This document shows positions 8,131 to 31,176 of a stretch of DNA of 64,000 nt, piece by piece. Numbering within the stretch: the first letter of the stretch is position 1; each line of letters begins with the position of its first letter. The DNA lies in the sequence record OQ174503.1; one strand, given 5' to 3'. This DNA comes from Escherichia phage REP4. The notes beneath the pieces were generated by a model. That model searched no databases, was not told the origin of the DNA, and saw nothing but the letters and a program-made list of their open reading frames with translations. The translations under genes were made by a program, and so were the position numbers.

Positions 8131-8346
8131 TTACCCCAGTTTAACCATGCAATCGCCATATTTCCATTTAGAAATAGACTTTTCACCATTAGAATAATAA
8201 ACTTCGAGTTTAGCGCGGCCATTTTTAATTTGAATAACTTTTGCTGTCATCAAAGTTCCATACCCATAATAAACTGCAACCTCATCACCCACATATACCG
8301 CGCTTCCACGGTAGTCATGGATATAATCAGTTCCTTCAAGCATCAT
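8131..8346 (-). CDS. hypothetical protein
   Basis: 71-aa ORF; ATGA-type overlap with nrdC. Confidence 0.5.
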   Translation of the reverse strand: MMLEGTDYIHDYRGSAVYVGDEVAVYYGYGTLMTAKVIQIKNGRAKLEVYYSNGEKSISKWKYGDCMVKLG

Positions 8347-8606
8347 TTAAAGTATTCACGCAATTGGTCAAATCCACCAATATGACTTCCGTCAGGAGCA
8401 AATACCTGAGGCATCGTCAATCCGATTTGAGTATCACGACCCAGTTTAGTCAGAAGCTCAGCGATTTTCTCATCATCAAAAACACCTTTTTCCGGCATAA
8501 TGTTGATAAATTCAAACGGCTGTTTCTTCACAGTCAAGAGACGTTTTGCATTATCGCAATACACACATTTGTGGATGTTGCTATCATAACCATATACTTT
8601 AAACAT
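8343..8606 (-). CDS. nrdC: T4 thioredoxin/glutaredoxin
   Basis: 87 aa, MFKVYGYDSNIHKCVYCDNAKRLL... with CVYC active site, matching T4 NrdC. Confidence 0.9.
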   Translation of the reverse strand: MFKVYGYDSNIHKCVYCDNAKRLLTVKKQPFEFINIMPEKGVFDDEKIAELLTKLGRDTQIGLTMPQVFAPDGSHIGGFDQLREYFK

Positions 8607-8865: not shown

Positions 8866-9154
8866 ATCGATGTTTACAATGACGACATTTATAACGAAGA
8901 TTACTAGTCTGCCAATGAACTAATTGTACCTGTTCAGTACCACATTTTGGGCAGTTCGGAACATTCTTAGAAGCCCTTTCGCGGCGTTCAACCATAGCCA
9001 TAATAGCATCCCAGGCTGGAGGTTTAAAATCTAAATCGTCACAACCATGAATCTTTCCACGCATTTCTAAATCGTCTTCTTCACCATCCATAATAATTTT
9101 AATTAGACTGGAATTACTTGAAGCTGCAATATCTTCTAATAAGCGCTTTTTCAT
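8837..9154 (-). CDS. zinc-ribbon protein (nrdC.2 position)
   Basis: 105 aa with CPKC...CRHC four-cysteine motif. Confidence 0.5.
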
Positions 9155-10083
9155 TTCAATACCTCAATAGCATTTCGTAAACCGTCAGCTTTTGCATTCA
9201 GAGCTTTTAATGATTTAGTTTGTTCTGCAATCCGGGCTTCGACTTCTTTCAGACGAGATTTGAGATATTCGCGTTCTTCTCTTAAGTTATCAACTTTTTC
9301 TGCTTTAGGCTCTTTAATAGGCTTAGGCTTATACTCATTAGGGTTCTTCAACTTAATTTGAATGTGAGAACTGTATAACATTGAACCATTATCTTCGGTT
9401 TCATCATACGTTTCTACTACGTCCATGATTCTTAACATCATGCGAAGTTTATAAGACAGCGAACGAATGGTTTTGTTGCGCTTATTAATTTCTTCGGCTT
9501 TCATGGTACCGAGATTACGTGAGTAGTAATAAGGAACCTGGATATCAATTGATAATGATGCGTTACCATTACCGGTTGGTTTGAATACTGCAGTAACCCA
9601 ATCTTTAACATGAACTTTATTTGTACGATCATCGCCGCCTGTGAATAATTTACGTGAATGTTTAAAAAGCATATTCACTTGGTTATTGAATTCACAAGCA
9701 AATTTATCAGCAAATTTAGTTTCAGGAATGGTAGATAACCAATCAGCTAAATGGGTCTTTTTAACATCGTTAACAATAGTAAATTCAACCAAATCAGTTA
9801 TAGATGTCGCAGATTTAATGAAGCTTGGCTTCATAAAGTTTTTAATGTTATCGCGAGCTACAGTAGAAGATAACATACGAGAACGTTTAAACCATTCAAG
9901 CAAATTGCCTAACGAATGAGAATAAGCGTTTTGAGTATCTTTACAGATATGATTTTCCTGGCCAACATATTGAAGGAAATCACGAAGAATATTATTGATT
10001 ACTGCTCTGTGCCCGATTTGATAATTACGGTGTTTAGTAATAAGACTGTCAAAATAATCAATATAATGTTTACGAGTTTTCAT
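9151..10083 (-). CDS. coiled-coil protein, paralog family member 1
   Basis: 310 aa; PKP-rich linker then about 40-aa C-terminal heptad coiled coil ([43 protein letters not shown]). Confidence 0.55.
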   Translation of the reverse strand: MKTRKHYIDYFDSLITKHRNYQIGHRAVINNILRDFLQYVGQENHICKDTQNAYSHSLGNLLEWFKRSRMLSSTVARDNIKNFMKPSFIKSATSITDLVEFTIVNDVKKTHLADWLSTIPETKFADKFACEFNNQVNMLFKHSRKLFTGGDDRTNKVHVKDWVTAVFKPTGNGNASLSIDIQVPYYYSRNLGTMKAEEINKRNKTIRSLSYKLRMMLRIMDVVETYDETEDNGSMLYSSHIQIKLKNPNEYKPKPIKEPKAEKVDNLREEREYLKSRLKEVEARIAEQTKSLKALNAKADGLRNAIEVLK

Positions 10084-10135
10084 GTTCTTCTCACTTGGTT
10101 AATGATTTATACTCCGAGCCATCCTTGGCTTTAAA

Positions 10136-11137
10136 TTACTTAATTAACTGTAAAGCTTGTTCAAGACGATCCAAGCGATTAACAGATTCTTCCCAAATCC
10201 TTTTAGCCTTCTCATATTCTTTCTGTGCTTTATTAGAAATTTCTAGAACTTCCTTATAAGCTTTTTCTAATGCAATAACTTCTGGACGAATTTCTACCGG
10301 TTTAGGCGAATCATCAAGATTATCCATTAGTTCCTCAAGGGTAGTTTCTTCTTTAGGAGTATTCACAATTTCATCACATTTTTGTTGGTAAATTTCTTTA
10401 TCAGTCGGTGAGTACGTACGTTTCACTTCACGAAGGCTAATTATAATTTTATATCCTTCCCAACCACACATATTTTTGAAAGGATATGTATGAATACTTT
10501 TTACGGTTTCCATACAGCCCAAAGCCGCCTCTAATTGATAAGTTATAGTGCTAGCAATTGAGAAAAATTTATTAATATTCTTTTGGTTAGCGTTTGGTGT
10601 AAAAAATCCATAATTCACAAAAATAGCTACTTTATTTTTATCAAGCTCATATTCTTTTACGATAACCATATCAGAAGCCAAAGGATGAATTTGACGATAA
10701 TCGCCATAACATAATTTAGAAGCTGATTTTAGAATCTGTCCTTTGAAAAGCCTGAAATTACTAATCCAACGACGAGTAAAAATATTCTCAGGGTCTTCTT
10801 TATTATTAAGATGATAAGAATTAACATCACCGAACCAATTATATCCTACTACATCTTTAGTTCGTTTAATTTCTTTCCCAAATTTACCAAGAATATCTCT
10901 GTTGACTAAGTATGAAAGAAGACGAGACCCTTTAAAGGTTTTCTTAATGTCATCTTTATCTGTACGACTAGAAATTTCACGAACTTCGTGAATAAATCTG
11001 CTGGAAGAAACAATGCTTACATCAATATTATTGAGCCATTGATTGATAATAGAAAGAACACTATTCTGACTAGACTTAGGTTTAACTTTATCATCAATAA
11101 CGCTATTGAATGATTTGATATATTCGTTACGAGTCAT
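10136..11137 (-). CDS. coiled-coil protein, paralog family member 2
   Basis: Start refined to MTRNEY... behind GAGGAG site; same architecture, C-terminal coiled coil. Confidence 0.55.
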   Translation of the reverse strand: MTRNEYIKSFNSVIDDKVKPKSSQNSVLSIINQWLNNIDVSIVSSSRFIHEVREISSRTDKDDIKKTFKGSRLLSYLVNRDILGKFGKEIKRTKDVVGYNWFGDVNSYHLNNKEDPENIFTRRWISNFRLFKGQILKSASKLCYGDYRQIHPLASDMVIVKEYELDKNKVAIFVNYGFFTPNANQKNINKFFSIASTITYQLEAALGCMETVKSIHTYPFKNMCGWEGYKIIISLREVKRTYSPTDKEIYQQKCDEIVNTPKEETTLEELMDNLDDSPKPVEIRPEVIALEKAYKEVLEISNKAQKEYEKAKRIWEESVNRLDRLEQALQLIK

Positions 11138-11165
11138 ATTAATCTCCTCAGTAGAAAGTAAGAAC

Positions 11166-11194
11166 ATTATACCACATCCTTGTGGCAAAGTAAA
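11166..11194 (-). promoter_or_regulatory. sigma70-type early promoter (-35 TTTACT, 17 bp, TG-extended -10 TATAAT)
   Basis: Consensus hexamers with 17-bp spacer immediately upstream of the 10136-11137 gene. Confidence 0.55.
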
Positions 11195-12217
11195 CTAGTT
11201 CAGTGCATTTAGTGCATTGTTCAGTTTAGAACGTTGCTTCGTGAGATTTTTGACTTTTTCTTGAGCTTTTTCTAGCATCTTTTCAGCTTCTAACACTTCA
11301 TTAGTTGCTTTAACGAGTTCATCATCTACTGCCTTGATAGACTTCTCAATCGCATCCGCGTGCCATTTTTCAACAGGTTTAAGACTCGGATTTTCAACAG
11401 GAAGAAAATTCGCTTTATTGAATTTCCATGCATCCTTATTACCTGAACTATACATCCAAAATTTAGGATCGTTTGATGAGTAATTGGATAAATTTAAGAT
11501 ATCTTGCACTTCTTGCTTTTTCTCTTGCGTGACTTCGTCCTTTCTCAAAAAATCGTATTTAAATGAAACGATCATATCAAGTTCATACGTTGTTGTGTCT
11601 AATTTAAATCGTTCAAAACGAGGTAAAATCTTAGACTGAACAGCGGCAACAACATCCATATACTTAAATGCTTCTGTCAACTGCGATTTAAGGCATTCGC
11701 AAATTGAAAGAGAATTTTTTGTATTAGGTTTAAAGCTAATTCGTGCAGTTCTATTATTTTCTTTTAATGGTCTTACTTCCATCTGAAGAGTATAACCATC
11801 AAATTTCAGATTCTTTAAGTTAATATCAGAACCTTTTAATCGACTCGCAGTTGATAAAATTTGCTTTAATTGTCTACGGAACAGAGCAATAAATCTCCAT
11901 TCAATACGATAATGATTTGGATTGAAAAATCCAGATGATAAATCGACCTTACTTTGACCAACGCCTTGAACAAATAGAGGATTTTTATAATCAATAGTTT
12001 TACAGAAATCGGTGAGCTGCTCACGGGCCGTCATTTGTGTAATATACCCTGCTTTACTAAAATTACGCACCCATTCACTGCTATTCGTATACTTAAAGTG
12101 ATGAATAACACGATTAACTTTATCAGGGTCTAAATTATTTTCACACAAAAATGTCATAACATCACGAGTATAGCTGGCATTACGAACCATATCTTCAATT
12201 TGAGAACGAGTTTTCAT
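11195..12217 (-). CDS. coiled-coil protein, paralog family member 3
   Basis: 340 aa, N-terminus MKTRSQ resembles member 1 (MKTRKH); C-terminal coiled coil. Confidence 0.55.
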   Translation of the reverse strand: MKTRSQIEDMVRNASYTRDVMTFLCENNLDPDKVNRVIHHFKYTNSSEWVRNFSKAGYITQMTAREQLTDFCKTIDYKNPLFVQGVGQSKVDLSSGFFNPNHYRIEWRFIALFRRQLKQILSTASRLKGSDINLKNLKFDGYTLQMEVRPLKENNRTARISFKPNTKNSLSICECLKSQLTEAFKYMDVVAAVQSKILPRFERFKLDTTTYELDMIVSFKYDFLRKDEVTQEKKQEVQDILNLSNYSSNDPKFWMYSSGNKDAWKFNKANFLPVENPSLKPVEKWHADAIEKSIKAVDDELVKATNEVLEAEKMLEKAQEKVKNLTKQRSKLNNALNALN

Positions 12218-12225
12218 GGTATTCC

Positions 12226-13116
12226 TTAAGATTTAAGTAAATCAACGATTTTAATTAACTTTTCACGCTCAGATTTAGCTTTACTACTCAATCCAGATAG
12301 TCTGAAAATTTCATCGTCATATTGTTGAATAGAAATATTCAGCTCTTCAATTTGCTTATTAAAATAATCAATTTGTTCAGAATGTTTTTCGTTACTACGA
12401 ACTGGTACAGGTTTTGTAGGCAATTTAGTTGAACTGGATTCATCCGGGCGATAAATTAAAATACAACTTGAACCAATAGGGCATTTTGCACCAGATGAAT
12501 ATTCTAATGTTCCAGCTTCTTTTAAAACTTCAAAAGCCAAACAGAGATGATGCCCCATATTAACATAATCTGTAGAGTGAGCTCTGATGTAATAATCATC
12601 TCCGCGAATACTGAATTTAAAGCATTTAAGGTCTTCTGTATTATTGGTCTTAAAAATCATTTGTTTATCTAGACCTTTAGCTAATCGAGCGCCTAATGCT
12701 AATAATCGTCGTTGATTTTCCCACAAATCCGTTATCATTTGATCGAATGATAATTTTGGCATTAGTCGACCATAAAGGTCATATCCTTTATTATAATTAC
12801 GAAGGATTTCGCTCGCATTAATACGAGACAACGCTCCAATTTTATTAAGGGCTTTCATAATGCGATTAGATAAACTCATTCCAGACCCGGTTGTTCGCTG
12901 CAAATGTTTTTCTAATCCAAATCCAATATCAACTTTAAACTTATCTAAAATTTCTGCATGAACATCTTTGTCGATAACATTCAAATCCAAAGTTGGGTTA
13001 AATCTATGAAAAAATTTATCTGGCTCTCCACGGCGAAGTACAGTCCATTCATTCATCGTTTTTTTATTAACTAATGATTTAATTACTGCATTGACATTAT
13101 TAATTACTACTGACAT
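12226..13116 (-). CDS. coiled-coil protein, paralog family member 4
   Basis: Start refined to MSVVINNVN...; C-terminal coiled coil (SKAKSEREKLIKIVDLLKS). Confidence 0.5.
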   Translation of the reverse strand: MSVVINNVNAVIKSLVNKKTMNEWTVLRRGEPDKFFHRFNPTLDLNVIDKDVHAEILDKFKVDIGFGLEKHLQRTTGSGMSLSNRIMKALNKIGALSRINASEILRNYNKGYDLYGRLMPKLSFDQMITDLWENQRRLLALGARLAKGLDKQMIFKTNNTEDLKCFKFSIRGDDYYIRAHSTDYVNMGHHLCLAFEVLKEAGTLEYSSGAKCPIGSSCILIYRPDESSSTKLPTKPVPVRSNEKHSEQIDYFNKQIEELNISIQQYDDEIFRLSGLSSKAKSEREKLIKIVDLLKS

Positions 13117-13123
13117 ATTTTCC

Positions 13124-13531
13124 TCACTCAATTTCAATTTTACTAAATACACAGAATATGATTGAACAGACTACATAAGCGCCACACACGGATTGAACTA
13201 ATACCATCCCAAAGAACCAAACAATATTATCAAACAGTGTCTGTTTTACGTCGAAAGGACGTAAACTTACAGTAATATTATCACCCTTTTCTATTGAAGA
13301 ATACATCTCTGGGGAAATATATTCACTAAATCTATAACCGTCTTTAAGTTCATATACGGCAATAAACGATAAACTAGACCCTTTTCCTTGTGTTCCTGTA
13401 ATGGTATTAACTACAGTAACATCATAATCTTTATAATGCATATAATCATTAATTGCGTAATAACCGTATGCAACTACTACACATAAACAACATATCAATA
13501 AATTCAATCTTTTAATTATCAACTGTTTCAT
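13124..13531 (-). CDS. membrane protein
   Basis: 135 aa, N-terminal and C-terminal hydrophobic helices. Confidence 0.5.
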   Translation of the reverse strand: MKQLIIKRLNLLICCLCVVVAYGYYAINDYMHYKDYDVTVVNTITGTQGKGSSLSFIAVYELKDGYRFSEYISPEMYSSIEKGDNITVSLRPFDVKQTLFDNIVWFFGMVLVQSVCGAYVVCSIIFCVFSKIEIE

Positions 13532-13589
13532 AATAATAATCTCAATTAAAAGGGCTTAGAACCATTATACCATCCTTGGTATAAAGCGG

Positions 13590-14117
13590 TTATGCGAGTA
13601 CCGTCTTTAACCGTTCTTCAAACTTCCGAAGAGTATTTTGGCGTTCAGCTCTTTGCTTTTTGTAAGTTTCAATACGCTCTGAAATGAGAGAGTATCGTTC
13701 ATTTACTGATTCTTTCATAAAATCAGGAATTTCACGAGAAGCTTTAATCTCATCAAATTTATCAATAACAGCTTGCTCTTCAGCAATTAAGTTATCATAC
13801 ATTAAAATATCTTTCTTGATGAACTCAATATCTTCTTGAGTTACACGAGATAATTTAGATGCTTTATCCTTTTTGTACTGTTCGTTAGTATCACGAGACC
13901 AGTGTAATGTACGATTTTTATTCGTATTTTTGTAAATTTCGACAATACCAATCTCATCAATAATAACGATCCAATTCCAACGGGATTTGTAAATTTGTCC
14001 TCCATCAACAGTGATTTCACCTCCGATTGAGATGTCGTTAAAGAACTTACTCTGTGCTTCAGATTTAAATTTACCATCGTTGTAATTTACCAGGTTGAAA
14101 ATATCTTTAGCGTTCAT
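13590..14117 (-). CDS. coiled-coil protein (shorter relative of the paralog family)
   Basis: Start refined to MNAKDIF... behind GGAGGA site; the ORF-track N-terminal extension is the promoter and leader read as protein. Confidence 0.55.
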   Translation of the reverse strand: MNAKDIFNLVNYNDGKFKSEAQSKFFNDISIGGEITVDGGQIYKSRWNWIVIIDEIGIVEIYKNTNKNRTLHWSRDTNEQYKKDKASKLSRVTQEDIEFIKKDILMYDNLIAEEQAVIDKFDEIKASREIPDFMKESVNERYSLISERIETYKKQRAERQNTLRKFEERLKTVLA

Positions 14118-14580: not shown

Positions 14581-15549
14581 TTATTTCAGAAGAGTAACCT
14601 CAGCAATTTCTTCCCAACCGTTTTTGTCGGTCATAATAAAGTCAGCAAGATAAAGAGCAGTACGCAGTGAAACATTGCGTAAACGGTTAACATTAACTTT
14701 CATCCATGATAATGCTTTATAAGTTTCTTCATCAGAAAGACCACGCTTTTGCATCATGTCAGTTGAAAGAATAACATCTTCAACCCTGACCATAATTTCT
14801 TCATTAGTGTGAACACCCAAATCCAAATAAACCGAGCGGGACACTAATGCTTGTAAATGTGGAGCAAGTTTAGTACCACGGTCTAATTCGCGGTCAATGT
14901 CAACGTTTGTGATAAAAACAATCGTTCCTTTAAATTCAAACTCACGCTCAATGCCTTTTTCTTCTAAGTAAGAAGACGCAGTGCTCCAGCAGACTTTACG
15001 GATCTCTCCAGTGTCCAGAGCAGCTTTTAGAAGATTAAGAATGTCCATATCAGAGAAAACATCCACATCATCAATCAAAAGGACAGAATTCTCTTCACGA
15101 TTATTCCAAAGCTGCTCATAAAGACCAATACCAGAGATTTTACCATTAATGCTTTTATATTCAATGTATCCATTATCATTTGCTTTATTTAAAGCTTTAT
15201 CTAAAGAATACGTTTTACCAATACCTGCTGCGCCAGAGATAATTAATGAACGAATATTTCCATTAATAATACCATTCGTCATCATTCCCATAACATTAAA
15301 TCTTTTATTAATGCGGGTTTTCATATCTTCATACGATTCTTTAACTTCTTCAACTTTTACACCATCATATGAAATATCTGATTTGTAAACCCAAACACCG
15401 CGACGTTTACCGTCAATTTCAACAAAAACTTTACCATCTCCTTGTGCATCTACCGGAGCATTATCTGGGAACCATTCGCCTAAGAGCTCAAAAGTTCCAG
15501 AGATTTCTTTACCGAAGTAGATACCCTTATTGATAGTTACAGTTTTCAT
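14581..15549 (-). CDS. P-loop ATPase (AAA-like)
   Basis: Walker A GAAGIGKT and Walker B VLLIDDVD; start refined to MKTVTINKG... behind GGAGAA site, downstream of an early promoter. Confidence 0.6.
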   Translation of the reverse strand: MKTVTINKGIYFGKEISGTFELLGEWFPDNAPVDAQGDGKVFVEIDGKRRGVWVYKSDISYDGVKVEEVKESYEDMKTRINKRFNVMGMMTNGIINGNIRSLIISGAAGIGKTYSLDKALNKANDNGYIEYKSINGKISGIGLYEQLWNNREENSVLLIDDVDVFSDMDILNLLKAALDTGEIRKVCWSTASSYLEEKGIEREFEFKGTIVFITNVDIDRELDRGTKLAPHLQALVSRSVYLDLGVHTNEEIMVRVEDVILSTDMMQKRGLSDEETYKALSWMKVNVNRLRNVSLRTALYLADFIMTDKNGWEEIAEVTLLK

Positions 15550-15583
15550 TTTATTCTCCAAATCCGTATCAGTTGATAGTTGT

Positions 15584-15640: not shown

Positions 15641-15669
15641 AATAAAAAAAAGGGAGCCCGAAGGCTCCC
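15641..15669 (-). terminator. hairpin terminator (GGGAGCC-UUCG-GGCUCCC + U8)
   Basis: Perfect 7-bp GC stem with tetraloop followed by a long T-run on the transcribed strand, just after the stop of the nucleotidyltransferase gene. Confidence 0.65.
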
Positions 15670-15671
15670 TA

Positions 15672-16685
15672 TCATTTATAATAACTTCGGTGGTTTTCAA
15701 GATAAACCCTCTCAAGGAAGTCATCCCAGAAACCCATGTCTACTTTTTGCTGCATACCGTTCTTAGAAGCTTCAATGGATGCTGCTTCTACTTGATCGAC
15801 CACATCTTCCAAAAACTCTTGAACAGTTTTAAATGGATGTTTACCCAGCTTCACGTCGAGAATAAATGGAGCGTCTTGAAGTGGATAAACTAAGTCACCA
15901 GTTTTGTAAATTTCCAATAGTTGGAGTCCACCACGGCAAGCATGACTAAGAGCTTTCCAGTCAATGCCCTCATTCGCTTCAGCCTTACGAGCACGTTCGC
16001 CGTATTCAGCATCTAATTTGTTCAGTGACTGCTTAAGCTCAATAAGAGAAAGTGTTGTCTGATATTTACGACCCAACACAGTGTAAAACGTTTGTGGACC
16101 TGTTTTCTCATGATTATGGAATACCCATTCGCAGAACTCGTTCTCTGGAAGACGATGCTTAATATCTTCAACTTTAGTTCGACGTTGCTTAATAGAACCA
16201 TCTTCTTGGTAATCAACCCATTGCTCAGGGATTTGATTAACTACTTTCAATACATCACGTAATGCGGCCAAACGAGAACCCTTAACACCATATTTAGAAG
16301 CTTGCTTGCGAACATATCCTAAATAGGATTTCATGTTAGTTGTATAAAACCGTGAACGATTGTCTTGAATAAACTTCCATACATCAGGCAAATCAGATTT
16401 AACTACCAGTTCAGGTGGAGTGTGGAGCATATCCAATGCTACAGTTTCACCATCTGCTGCTAATTTAAAGAAATATTTAAGACTGTATAGTTCATGGTCA
16501 ATATCATCTTTGGTGTTTTTAGATGATGTGTTGTTAGTGTTTTTACTCATATGCTCTTTAACATTTCCGATAAGAATATCACGAGCAGGAGGAACAAAGA
16601 TTTCTTTAAAATCTACATCAGATTCTGGAGTAGAAGTTCCATAAAGATGACTACCGAAATAGCTTTTCATTACTGTTTTCATCAT
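15672..16685 (-). CDS. predicted Pol-beta-superfamily nucleotidyltransferase
   Basis: 337 aa; N-terminal GS...DVD motif (YFGSHLYGTSTPESDVDF) characteristic of the minimal nucleotidyltransferase fold; 4-bp overlap with the ATPase gene. Confidence 0.55.
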   Translation of the reverse strand: MMKTVMKSYFGSHLYGTSTPESDVDFKEIFVPPARDILIGNVKEHMSKNTNNTSSKNTKDDIDHELYSLKYFFKLAADGETVALDMLHTPPELVVKSDLPDVWKFIQDNRSRFYTTNMKSYLGYVRKQASKYGVKGSRLAALRDVLKVVNQIPEQWVDYQEDGSIKQRRTKVEDIKHRLPENEFCEWVFHNHEKTGPQTFYTVLGRKYQTTLSLIELKQSLNKLDAEYGERARKAEANEGIDWKALSHACRGGLQLLEIYKTGDLVYPLQDAPFILDVKLGKHPFKTVQEFLEDVVDQVEAASIEASKNGMQQKVDMGFWDDFLERVYLENHRSYYK

Positions 16686-29226: not shown

Positions 29227-29820
29227 TTATTTCAGAGAATTAATGTATTCCTGAACATCGGCAGAAGTAGTTTCAACCCCAGAAATATTACCGTTAAAGG
29301 TTTCAACTCGAGCAAGGGTATCTTCAATATCAACCTTAGTCAGTGCTGCAATTTCAACTACATCATCAGCAGTACTAATTCCAAGGGCATTTGCCGCACG
29401 AGTTTCACGGATATATTCCAATTTAACTGCAAGTTCTTGGCGAGCATCATCTAACTCAACTACTTTCTTAGCGATTTCAATTCGCATTTCGGCATAACCG
29501 TCAGCCTTAGTAGTCAACTGCTCAGCTGTTCGACGATATAGTAAACCAAGTTTAGCATGCATTGTTACATCTTGACCTTCGGAAAGAAGCTTGCGAATTT
29601 CACGCTCTTTTGATTCGGCCTGTCGATTCTTTTCGATAACAAGTTCACGAATACGTTTTTCTTCATTAATAGATTTAACGGAAGCAGTTTTTAGATCTTT
29701 AATTTTATCAAGTAGTTTTGCTGCTGCAGCAGTATACTGTTCTTCAACAGATAGATTTTTAGCCATAGCAGAACCAAGTTTAGTGCGAATAAAATCAACA
29801 ATTTTCTTCAGTGTGTTCAT
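29227..29820 (-). CDS. coiled-coil protein
   Basis: 197 aa, highly charged helical sequence. Confidence 0.5.
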
Positions 29821-30612: not shown

Positions 30613-31176
30613 TTATTTACCTAGTTTAGTTATTATAGCTTCTGCGGCAGCTTTTAGTTTAGATGCGGTGTTAATACGATTTTTAATTTCAGTATACGCA
30701 TCGCCAAGAACGTCAAGGCTATCAGAATAAACGCTTACACTATTGCGTTCGCTATTTGAAATAGAACCTTTAGTTTTACGATCAAAATCAATGTACACGT
30801 CTTGAAGATCATGGGCTGCCTTCTTTGCATCATCCAATGCATCAAGAGCTTTATTCAAAGCATTAACGTATTTTTTAGTGTCGAACATATTCTTAGAAAT
30901 TTTAACAGGCGCACGTTCAGGAGTAGCTAAGGCAGATTTAGGAACCTGAGCGCCAGATGCCAGTTTCTTAGAAATTTTGAAAAATGCTTTATTGAATTTA
31001 TTTTCTTGACTCATCGTAAAAGAACTATTATCGATGTTATACATTTCAATAGCTTTAGCTTTCCACTTAAGAAAATCGCCACGGTCTTTTGGGTCCAATT
31101 GGAAGAATACTTTAGTAAGTTCTGCTTCAGATGGTAATTTTGCTGCTTCGGTTAAAAATTCGGCATAAGTTTTCAT
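30613..31176 (-). CDS. internal-protein-like protein with capsid-targeting sequence
   Basis: 187 aa beginning MKTYAEFLTEAA; no T4 counterpart at this position that I recall. Confidence 0.55.
   Translation of the reverse strand: MKTYAEFLTEAAKLPSEAELTKVFFQLDPKDRGDFLKWKAKAIEMYNIDNSSFTMSQENKFNKAFFKISKKLASGAQVPKSALATPERAPVKISKNMFDTKKYVNALNKALDALDDAKKAAHDLQDVYIDFDRKTKGSISNSERNSVSVYSDSLDVLGDAYTEIKNRINTASKLKAAAEAIITKLGK

What the first reader, a model, noticed from the sequence alone, without database searches (positions are those of the whole stretch)
9151..14117. Tandem array of four or five diverged paralogs ending in leucine-zipper-like coiled coils
Four consecutive genes (about 310, 334, 340 and 296 aa) share one architecture: a globular N-terminal domain of about 250 aa, a Pro/Lys-rich linker, and a C-terminal 35-45 residue heptad coiled coil. 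Members 1 and 3 share the N-terminus MKTR. A fifth, shorter gene (13590-14117) also ends in a coiled coil. The globular parts are strongly diverged while the coiled-coil tail is kept, which is the pattern expected for a family with a shared oligomerisation module and diversified target-binding heads.
Basis: seen in the sequence. Interest (0 to 1): 0.55.

Follow-up and report, generated by a model that had tools for sequence, protein, structure and literature searches.

The report
T-even phage NrdC.3–NrdC.6 paralog array
Four neighbouring, dispensable genes of a T4-like phage (nrdC.3 to nrdC.6) are old duplicates of one protein design, a globular head plus a C-terminal coiled-coil tail; one of them (NrdC.5) is already known to neutralise a bacterial immune protein, so the other three are probably inhibitors of other host defences.

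Summary
The window is a Tequatrovirus (T4-like) genome. The finding covers the annotated T4 genes nrdC.3, nrdC.4, nrdC.5 and nrdC.6, plus nrdC.8. The four ~300-340 aa genes are real and share one architecture.

- **Paralogy by sequence.** Profile comparison gives nrdC.3/nrdC.4 E=4e-14 and nrdC.4/nrdC.5 E=1e-5, co-linear over 225 columns.
- **nrdC.6 by structure.** Its AlphaFold model has the same order of elements as nrdC.4. Both models hit the same full-length viral structures. Secondary structure agrees at 76% of weakly aligned head positions, against 39% in shifted controls.
- **The tails.** Each ends in about seven unbroken heptads in the same register, with a shared terminal motif found in no other of the 73 ATG-started ORFs of at least 100 aa in the window.
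- **The fifth gene.** nrdC.8 is not a member, and its tail is not a convincing coiled coil.
- **Known function.** T4 NrdC.5 counters the Dsr1 sirtuin defence. Neighbouring genes 49.2 and nrdC.1 and the apparent nrdC.8 ortholog in phage Bas37 counter OLD, Septu and Druantia III.

My best reading is a tandem-duplicated family of stoichiometric anti-defence proteins in an anti-defence island. The genes are known. The superfamily link, and a tail-terminator-like core fold, appear not to have been described.

The parts
9151..10083 (-). nrdC.3 ortholog, 310 aa; family member 1
   Evidence: ORF. Full-length match to PHROG 1435, E=8e-110. hhalign against the nrdC.4 family: probability 98.2%, E=3.6e-14 over 226 columns. 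The most variable member: no record in the phage collection reaches 90% aa identity, and there are two allele classes, at 80-90% and 60-80% (listed examples about 62%).
10136..11137 (-). nrdC.4 ortholog, 333 aa; family member 2 and the hub of the profile links
11195..12217 (-). nrdC.5 ortholog, 340 aa; family member 3; T4 NrdC.5 counteracts Dsr1
   Evidence: Pfam DUF7235, 426.8 bits against a cut-off of 30. 96.5% aa identity to T4 nrdC.5 (H30). hhalign against the nrdC.4 family: probability 80.5%, E=1.3e-5, 225 co-linear columns; the reversed-profile control gives E=0.27. Function reported in PMC9391042.
12226..13116 (-). nrdC.6 ortholog, 296 aa; family member 4, assigned by fold
   Evidence: PHROG 2257, E=5e-152. 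Precomputed PF26899. AF2 model with pLDDT 75.8 has the same order of elements as nrdC.4. Foldseek on BFVD shares five full-length significant targets with nrdC.4. Merged C.3/4/5 profile against C.6: E=0.0056, with 76% secondary-structure agreement in the head against 0.39±0.06 in shifted controls.
9154..9300 (-). Coiled-coil tail of nrdC.3 (last 49 aa)
   Evidence: Single-register heptads. In the 49-aa tail, a = V,R,L,I,L,A,I and d = L,L,V,Q,L,L,L. Ends in LRNAIEVLK.
10139..10285 (-). Coiled-coil tail of nrdC.4 (last 49 aa)
   Evidence: AF2 helix 285-332. Period-3.5 power exceeded by 0 of 1000 shuffles. Y/Y/W at position a with A/A/S at position d in the centre. Nearly invariant 'WEES.NRLD.LEQAL.L.K' across orthologs.
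11198..11344 (-). Coiled-coil tail of nrdC.5 (last 49 aa)
   Evidence: Best heptad score in the window, 0.82. Periodicity P=0.001. Ends in LNNALNALN.
12229..12390 (-). Coiled-coil tail of nrdC.6 (last 54 aa)
   Evidence: AF2 helix 243-295. Heptads with Ile at position a and Leu/Phe/Tyr at position d. Invariant 'DDEIF' and 'LLK' across orthologs.
11166..11194 (-). Sigma-70-like promoter match upstream of nrdC.4
   Evidence: TTTACT-17-TATAAT with an extended TG, 10 of 12 matches. This is a consensus scan only, and the number of sites in the region is no higher than in shuffles.
   Evidence: Two hydrophobic stretches. PHROG 2547. Present in the Tequatrovirus loci that extend this far and absent from the other genera.
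   Evidence: No profile similarity to C.3-C.6. Tail not significant as a coiled coil. Same position and size as bas37_0203 (528 nt, between a 390-nt and a 315-nt gene), which is reported as a Druantia III inhibitor.

Best explanation
The block nrdC.3-nrdC.4-nrdC.5-nrdC.6 is a tandem-duplicated, fast-evolving family of accessory proteins found in T-even phages; nrdC.5 is described as an early gene, the others are assumed to be.

**Architecture.** Each protein has four parts:
1. an N-terminal helical bundle;
2. an alpha/beta core that resembles phage tail-terminator (gpU-like) proteins;
3. a short Pro-rich linker containing KP[V/I];
4. a C-terminal coiled-coil helix of about seven heptads.

**Proposed mechanism.** The proteins act as non-enzymatic, stoichiometric binders that neutralise host anti-phage defence proteins. 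NrdC.5 blocks the SIR2 NADase Dsr1. The paralogs have diversified to hit other systems or other alleles. The coiled coil makes each protein an oligomer, which would give avidity against oligomeric immune proteins.

**Shown here.**
- The gene set and the shared architecture.
- Paralogy of nrdC.3, nrdC.4 and nrdC.5 by sequence, and of nrdC.6 by predicted fold.
- The heptad tails.
- Hypervariability and frequent loss or fusion in nature.

**Shown by others.**
- NrdC.5 counters Dsr1.
- The genes are dispensable in the laboratory.
- Neighbouring genes are anti-defence genes.

**Inferred.**
- That NrdC.3, NrdC.4 and NrdC.6 are anti-defence proteins.
- That inhibition is by direct binding.
- That the tail oligomerises.
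For: **Paralogy and architecture**
- hhalign: C.3/C.4 E=3.6e-14 and C.4/C.5 E=1.3e-5, with reversed-profile controls at E>0.2.
- The C.4/C.5 alignment is co-linear and runs through the shared motif W...F.....IL..AS[KR]L..G.D.
- The C.4 and C.6 models have the same order of elements.
- Both models hit the same BFVD targets: A0A7G3KGN9, A0A0A0PZG4, A0A345AUV5, A0A023W506 and A0A1V0DXL6.
- Secondary-structure agreement is 76% against 39% in controls.
- The heptad registers are identical when counted from the C-terminus, and the terminal motif is unique to these four of 73 ORFs.

**Function**
- Plasmid-borne T4 nrdC.5 restores plating of a deletion mutant on cells carrying dsr1 (PMC9391042). The window's copy is 96.5% identical to T4's.
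- The genes sit in an anti-defence island: 49.2 is anti-OLD (PMC13096335); nrdC.1 is anti-Septu, and the gene at the nrdC.8 position in Bas37 is anti-Druantia III (bioRxiv 10.1101/2025.11.20.689424).
- nrdC.2 to nrdC.11, which include all four, are classed non-essential in T4.

**Arms-race signature**
- Identity to the window across Tequatrovirus records falls in the order C.8 (mostly ≥95%), C.6 (mostly 95-99%), C.5 (mostly 90-95%), C.4 (mostly 80-90%), C.3 (none ≥90%).
- C.5 orthologs in other genera are only 22-28% identical.
- Natural deletions and in-frame hybrids occur.

**No sign of an enzyme**
- No Pfam or NCBIfam domain, and no residue invariant across the paralogs.
Against: - Only one of the four has any functional data, and its mechanism is unknown. 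Direct binding to Dsr1 has not been shown.
- In the HIDEN-SEQ main-text passages read here, nrdC.3, nrdC.4 and nrdC.6 are not among the conditionally essential hits on the clinical strains tested.
- The sequence link of nrdC.6 is weak (E=0.006) and rests mainly on two AF2 models with pTM 0.63-0.66.
- The oligomeric state is untested, and g/e' electrostatics are uninformative.
- Location in an anti-defence island is evidence by association only.
Confidence: 0.6

Rival explanations
1. The paralogs are subunits of one hetero-oligomeric assembly, held together by their coiled-coil tails. They carry out a single job rather than acting as independent inhibitors.
For: - The tails share the same length, register and terminal motif.
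- C.4/C.3-type, C.5-type and C.6-type genes co-occur in the complete Tequatrovirus loci and in the other T-even loci examined (L005-L015, including one Mosigvirus record).
- The g/e' scores do not disfavour hetero-pairs.
Against: - nrdC.5 alone, expressed from a plasmid, complements the Dsr1 phenotype.
- Natural phages lack individual members. Pinarejo has no C.6 head, Manna has no C.5, and ACG-C40 lacks C.3-C.5.
- Moonvirus, Jiaodavirus, Karamvirus and ZZ1 carry a single such gene at this position.
- The tail sequence is conserved within each paralog family but differs between paralogs, which fits paralog-specific pairing better.
Confidence: 0.12
2. The family has a host-takeover or housekeeping role unrelated to immunity, for example modulating host transcription, the nucleoid or nucleotide metabolism. 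The anti-Dsr1 effect of NrdC.5 would then be indirect.
For: - The mechanism of NrdC.5 is unknown.
- The genes lie between nucleotide-metabolism genes (nrdC, nrdD, tk).
- nrdC.3-nrdC.6 are not among the hits named in the HIDEN-SEQ passages read here.
Against: - The genes are non-essential in T4.
- Within a genus they are far more variable than neighbouring conserved genes.
- They are frequently deleted in nature.
- There are no enzymatic or DNA-binding domain hits.
- Four neighbouring genes have direct anti-defence phenotypes.
Confidence: 0.15
3. Only nrdC.3, nrdC.4 and nrdC.5 are true paralogs. nrdC.6 merely converged on a similar helix-rich head with a C-terminal helix.
For: Sequence profiles alone give no significant head similarity for C.6 (C.4 against C.6 E=0.23; merged profile E=0.0056). 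The AF2 confidence for C.6 is moderate (pLDDT 75.8).
Against: - The order of elements matches, including the H-H-h-hairpin-H-hairpin core.
- The motifs G-Y-[ND]-x-[FY]-G and L..[AG].[KR]L..G align.
- Secondary-structure agreement is 76% against a maximum of 54% in 71 shifted controls.
- The two models share full-length Foldseek targets at E 1e-8 to 1e-4.
- The linker KPV, the tail register and the terminal motif are the same.
- The genomic position is adjacent.
Confidence: 0.1

Closest known systems
T4 NrdC.5 (DUF7235, PF23882), the phage-encoded antagonist of the Dsr1 defence sirtuin (Srikant et al. 2022, PMC9391042)
   Same: Gene 3 of the array is its ortholog: 96.5% aa identity and a full-length DUF7235 match. 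Genes 1, 2 and 4 are its diverged paralogs with the same architecture.
   Different: Genes 1, 2 and 4 do not match the DUF7235 model. Nothing is known of their targets. The paper does not describe the paralogy, the fold or the coiled coil.
DSAD1, the anti-DSR2 protein of SPbeta-like phages
   Same: It is a phage protein that inhibits a defence-associated sirtuin by direct binding to the immune protein (abstracts of PMC10973363, PMC10981675 and PMC11087589, listed). This is the mode of action I propose for NrdC.5.
   Different: No sequence or fold relationship was detected or tested. It has a different target (DSR2, whose trigger is the tail tube protein), and it is not a tandem paralog family.
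Tail terminator / tail completion proteins (lambda gpU fold, DUF3168, SPP1 gp17-like)
Anti-defence islands of T-even phages (dmd-tifA-adfA 'anti-TA island'; 49.2, nrdC.1)
   Same: A cluster of small, non-essential accessory genes, each neutralising a different host defence, prone to amplification and deletion.
   Different: Those neighbours are unrelated to each other in sequence. Here four adjacent genes are paralogs of one another, so the repertoire arose by local duplication and divergence.

Membership tests
NrdC.3/NrdC.4 family (PHROG 1435; Pfam PF26897) | Full-length profile match | tested here: met
   Genes 1 and 2 match PHROG 1435 end to end (E=8e-110 and 1e-164). PF26897 is precomputed on nrdC.4 homologs and on a chimera carrying the nrdC.3 C-terminal part. 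Genes 3 and 4 do not match.
DUF7235 (PF23882; NrdC.5) | Score above the Pfam gathering threshold (30 bits) | tested here: met
   Gene 3 scores 426.8 bits over residues 1-340. Genes 1, 2 and 4 give no hit at E≤0.1, so they are not members at the Pfam-family level.
NrdC.6 family (PHROG 2257; Pfam PF26899) | Full-length profile match | tested here: met
   Gene 4 matches PHROG 2257 over 1-296, E=5e-152. PF26899 is precomputed on all 105 homologs.
Proposed NrdC.3-6 superfamily (one fold, common descent) | Significant profile-profile similarity over the head domain | tested here: met
   Met for C.3/C.4 (E=3.6e-14) and C.4/C.5 (E=1.3e-5), with reversed controls at E>0.2. For C.6 the signal is weak: E=0.0056 against the merged profile.
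Proposed NrdC.3-6 superfamily (one fold, common descent) | Same predicted fold | tested here: inconclusive
   The C.4 and C.6 models have the same order of elements, share BFVD targets and show 76% secondary-structure agreement.
Phage anti-defence protein (anti-Dsr1) | Orthology to the tested protein | tested here: met
   Gene 3 is 96.5% identical to T4 nrdC.5 over its full length (H30).
Phage anti-defence protein (anti-Dsr1) | Restores phage growth on a host carrying the defence system | not testable with these tools
   Shown for T4 nrdC.5 only (PMC9391042). Nothing is known for genes 1, 2 and 4.
Leucine zipper / parallel coiled coil | At least 4-5 uninterrupted heptads with hydrophobic a/d positions and Leu dominant at d | tested here: met
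   About seven heptads in one register in all four tails. Leu fills 5 of 7 d positions in C.3. C.4, C.5 and C.6 have mixed d positions (Ala, Ser, Phe, Tyr), so 'leucine zipper' fits only C.3 strictly.
Leucine zipper / parallel coiled coil | Actual oligomerisation and partner specificity | not testable with these tools
   No multimer prediction was available. The g/e' charge score ranges from -2 to +2 over 14 pairs for all homo- and hetero-pairs, which is uninformative.
Tail terminator (gpU-like) proteins | Fold match to solved terminators | tested here: inconclusive
Thioredoxin/glutaredoxin (the label on these genes in many GenBank records) | Thioredoxin fold and CxxC active site | tested here: not met
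   No thioredoxin or glutaredoxin Pfam hit. No CxxC in any of the four sequences (read directly). The predicted folds are not thioredoxin-like. The label is propagated from the neighbouring nrdC gene.

The most novel reading that the evidence does not exclude
The family is an exapted tail-terminator-like structural fold that works as a decoy or plug for host pattern-recognition sensors. Recent work reports that Dsr1 and Avs TPR sensors recognise conserved folds of virion proteins (major capsid protein for Dsr1, tail terminator for Avs15; PMC12803255).

On this reading, early-made oligomeric NrdC.3-6 proteins would occupy such sensors without activating them. Each paralog would be tuned to a different sensor family, and the coiled coil would mimic or block the multimeric interface that the sensors read. 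Tandem duplication would then be the phage's way of building a repertoire of sensor blockers.
Probability: 0.12. Interest if true: 0.8.

Novelty: new member of a known kind. Interest (0 to 1): 0.45.

Why it matters
T4 is the best-studied phage, yet most of its accessory genes have no known function. Showing that nrdC.3, nrdC.4 and nrdC.6 are paralogs of the anti-Dsr1 protein NrdC.5 has three consequences.

- **Candidates.** It gives three concrete, testable candidate anti-defence proteins in T4 itself, and a family found across Straboviridae with one to four copies at a conserved locus.
- **Evolution.** It suggests that local duplication and divergence, not only gene capture, builds phage counter-defence repertoires. 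Natural in-frame head/tail hybrids show that the modules can be reshuffled.
- **Mechanism.** The shared head-linker-coiled-coil design and the tail-terminator-like core give a structural starting point for working out how NrdC.5 silences a sirtuin NADase.

Tried and rejected
- **Plain BLASTP among the window proteins.** It links only C.3 and C.4 (E=3e-5).
- **Exhaustive HMMER search of 1.84 billion representatives with a C.3+C.4 profile.** It found only 9 proteins, all from the same family or fragments of it, so it gave no bridge to C.5 or C.6 and no cellular homologs.
- **The three word-indexed homolog searches.** They returned only T-even phage orthologs.
- **PDB sequence searches.** Nothing meaningful; only designed helical repeats at E about 1e-3 for the N-terminal helices of C.4.
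- **NCBIfam.** Only sub-threshold noise, such as the tyrosine recombinase N-terminus at 16.8 bits against a cut-off of 279.
- **Weak Pfam hits** (DUF3905, DUF3287, DUF7310, DUF4164). All are below their cut-offs and I discarded them.
- **nrdC.8 as a fifth member.** Rejected: no profile similarity and no significant heptad signal.
- **A crude 28-residue heptad scan.** It under-called C.4 and C.6, so I replaced it with single-register and Fourier analyses.
- **g/e' electrostatics for pairing specificity.** Uninformative.
- **Single-copy genes from Aeromonas Aes012 and Acinetobacter ZZ1.** No significant profile link. The Jiaodavirus, Karamvirus and Moonvirus singletons link only weakly (E 1e-5 to 1e-2).
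- **Guessing the Bas37 accession.** This failed; I resolved the question through the paper's supplement instead.
- **A literature search with 'anti-dsr'.** It was swamped by dsRNA papers.
- **The promoter scan.** No more sites than in shuffles, so I draw no expression claim from it.

Full report
**Identity of the region**

The window is a Tequatrovirus (T4-like) genome. The ORF at 8343-8606(-) is the NrdC glutaredoxin. The 5-kb stretch of the finding matches 740 phage records, best at 96% nucleotide identity, and in curated records the genes are annotated nrdC.3 to nrdC.8. NrdC.4 is 100% identical to a protein of Escherichia phage REP4. NrdC.5 is 96.5% identical to the T4 protein.

The genes, all on the minus strand, are:

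| Gene | Coordinates | Length |
|---|---|---|
| nrdC.3 | 9151-10083 | 310 aa |
| nrdC.4 | 10136-11137 | 333 aa (true start 'MTRNEY') |
| nrdC.5 | 11195-12217 | 340 aa |
| nrdC.6 | 12226-13116 | 296 aa |
| nrdC.8 | 13590-14117 | 175 aa |

**Are the four long genes related?**

BLASTP links only C.3 and C.4 (E=3e-5). PHROGs puts these two in one family (1435) and puts C.5, C.6 and C.8 in separate families. Pfam has DUF7235 for C.5. Precomputed annotations give PF26897 for C.3/C.4 and PF26899 for C.6.

I built family alignments from 14 IMG/VR loci, GenBank loci and the homolog searches and compared the profiles.
- C.3/C.4: probability 98%, E=3.6e-14 over 226 columns.
- C.4/C.5: probability 80.5%, E=1.3e-5 over 225 co-linear columns.
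- Controls with reversed profiles all give E>0.2.

The C.4/C.5 alignment runs from the alpha/beta core into the tail. It passes through a shared motif: 'F..RW...F......ILKSASKL..GD' in C.4 against 'Y..EW....LF.....ILSTASRLKGSD' in C.5.

C.6 gives no significant head match on its own. Against a merged C.3/4/5 profile it gives E=0.0056, in the structurally equivalent region.

**Structure**

The AlphaFold2 model of NrdC.4 (pLDDT 83.9) has these elements, in order: an N-terminal helical bundle (3-84), three strands, helices 119-148, a hairpin, a long helix 185-208, a second hairpin, two short helices, a disordered linker (276-284) and a 48-residue terminal helix.

The model of NrdC.6 (pLDDT 75.8) has the same order of elements. 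It lacks the two short helices, has a disordered linker at 228-242 and ends in a 53-residue helix.

Three results tie the two models together.
- Foldseek against BFVD returns, for both models, the same full-length uncharacterised proteins of other Straboviridae, with E from 1e-8 to 1e-3. They come from Enterobacter IME523, Pectobacterium PM2, Acinetobacter fHyAci03, Serratia PS2 and Yersinia fHe-Yen9-01.
- I projected the two DSSP strings onto the weak sequence alignment. Agreement in the head is 76% over 191 positions, against 0.39±0.06 (maximum 0.54) for shifted controls.
- Family-invariant motifs line up: GYNWFGD with GYDLYGR, and ILKSASKL..GD with LLALGARLAKGLD.

I therefore accept C.6 as a fourth, more distant member.

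**The tails**

All four tails can be written in a single heptad register for about seven heptads. Counted from the C-terminus the register is the same in all four. Each ends with L(d)-x-x-[A/I]-hydrophobic(a)-x-x-[L/I](d)-[K/N]. That pattern was defined after the fact, but it occurs in these four and in none of the other 69 ATG-started ORFs of at least 100 aa in the window.

Hydrophobic periodicity peaks at 3.4-3.5 residues rather than 3.6. Shuffle P ranges from 0 of 1000 shuffles to 0.026. Only C.3 is a leucine zipper in the strict sense. C.4 has Tyr/Tyr/Trp at position a opposite Ala/Ala/Ser at position d.

Within each orthologous family the tail is the most conserved segment, and this includes its surface residues. 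The linkers all contain KP[V/I].

The tail of NrdC.8 peaks at 3.6, contains a proline and is not significant (P=0.066). Its head has no similarity to the others. It is a neighbour, not a member.

**Distribution and dynamics**

- The complete Tequatrovirus loci carry C.3, C.4, C.5 and C.6.
- Other T-even genera carry three copies. Loci L005-L014 carry a C.4-type gene with C.5 and C.6. The Mosigvirus phage AV112 carries a C.3-type gene with C.5 and C.6.
- Moonvirus, Jiaodavirus, Karamvirus and Acinetobacter phage ZZ1 have one 324-386-aa gene with a coiled-coil end at the same position, upstream of the short ORFs that precede nrdC. The first three of these link weakly to the family by profile.

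Identity to the window across Tequatrovirus records falls in this order: C.8 (mostly ≥95%), C.6 (mostly 95-99%), C.5 (mostly 90-95%), C.4 (mostly 80-90%), C.3 (none ≥90%, with a second allele class at 60-80%, listed examples about 62%). C.5 orthologs in other genera are only 22-28% identical.

Natural isolates show deletions and fusions inside the array.
- ACG-C40 lacks most of C.5, all of C.4 and most of C.3.
- Pinarejo lacks the C.6 head.
- Salmonella phage Manna encodes an in-frame hybrid of the NrdC.6 head and the NrdC.4 C-terminus, joined at a shared 'DEI'.
- One metagenomic protein is a C.5/C.3 chimera.

**Function**

- Srikant et al. showed that a T4 clone carrying compensatory deletions cannot plate on ECOR17 or on K-12 carrying dsr1, and that plasmid-borne nrdC.5 restores plating (PMC9391042).
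- HIDEN-SEQ classifies nrdC.2 to nrdC.11 as non-essential in T4. It identifies nrdC.1 as a Septu inhibitor and bas37_0203 as a Druantia III inhibitor.
- By position and size, bas37_0203 is the nrdC.8 ortholog. I did not compare the sequences.
- Gene 49.2, just beyond nrdC, inhibits OLD.

So the array sits in an anti-defence island, and one of its members is a proven counter-defence gene.

It is notable because a 2026 preprint reports that the Dsr1 sensor recognises the major capsid protein and that Avs15 recognises tail terminators.

**Conclusion**

- **Observation.** It is largely right for four genes and wrong for the fifth.
- **Mechanism.** The best-supported reading is a tandem-duplicated family of non-enzymatic, probably oligomeric, defence inhibitors. 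NrdC.5/Dsr1 is the only characterised pair.
- **Novelty.** The genes are known. What appears undescribed in the literature I could search is the four-member superfamily, its common architecture and the terminator-like core.
- **Limits.** Oligomerisation, direct binding and the targets of NrdC.3, NrdC.4 and NrdC.6 remain untested.

Noticed in passing
window 13124-13531 (-): nrdC.7, 135 aa, has two hydrophobic membrane-like stretches. It sits between nrdC.6 and nrdC.8. It is present in the Tequatrovirus loci that extend this far and absent from the other T-even genera examined.
   Followed up: partly
window 13590-14117 (-): [quoted passage not shown] Unlike nrdC.3-5 it is conserved at ≥95% in about 500 of 741 phage records. 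Sequence identity to Bas37 was not checked directly.
   Followed up: partly
L023 2715-3752 (Salmonella phage Manna gene 094); L022 3230-3641 (ACG-C40); L024 3439-3655 (Pinarejo); proteins P0224 and P0064: Natural rearrangements occur inside the array. Manna has an in-frame hybrid of the NrdC.6 head and the NrdC.4 C-terminus joined at a shared 'DEI'. ACG-C40 has a deletion from nrdC.5 into nrdC.3. Pinarejo has lost the nrdC.6 head. P0224 is a C.5/C.3 chimera. P0064 is an NrdC.6 with an internal duplication.
   Followed up: yes
window 9151-10083 (-): The window's NrdC.3 allele is less than 90% identical in protein sequence to every one of 653 matching phage records. The records fall into two allele classes, at 80-90% and 60-80% identity (listed examples about 62%).
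   Followed up: partly
window 14581-15552 (-) and 15672-16685 (-): nrdC.10 gives weak nSTAND3/AAA ATPase hits. nrdC.11 is an RlaP-type (RNA-repair pathway) nucleotidyltransferase, PF10127, E=3e-11. nrdC.11 is found in 1504 phage records, as far out as Vibrio, Aeromonas and Acinetobacter phages.
   Followed up: no
window 15651-15670: A perfect 8-bp GC-rich hairpin (AGGGAGCC-TTCG-GGCTCCCT) followed by a T-run on the minus strand lies between nrdC.11 and nrdC.10. It is the strongest terminator-like site in the region.
   Followed up: no
window 30613-31176 (-) and 29227-29820 (-): Two further ORFs (187 and 197 aa) have heptad-like C-terminal tails, ranking 3rd and 5th of 73 ORFs. Neither has a Pfam match.
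   Followed up: partly
GenBank records matched: Many deposited T4-like genomes label nrdC.3 to nrdC.11 as 'thioredoxin' (or 'Mur ligase domain-containing protein' for one gene in the block). For nrdC.3-nrdC.9 there is no thioredoxin hit, and nrdC.3-6 have no CxxC motif. The name appears to have been propagated from the gene symbol nrdC.
   Followed up: yes
BFVD targets E5E4A1 and E5E4A2 (Acinetobacter phage Acj61): Two proteins with consecutive UniProt accessions are hit, one by the NrdC.4 model and the other by the NrdC.6 model. This suggests a tandem pair of family members in an Acinetobacter phage too. The adjacency is inferred from the accession numbers only.
   Followed up: no
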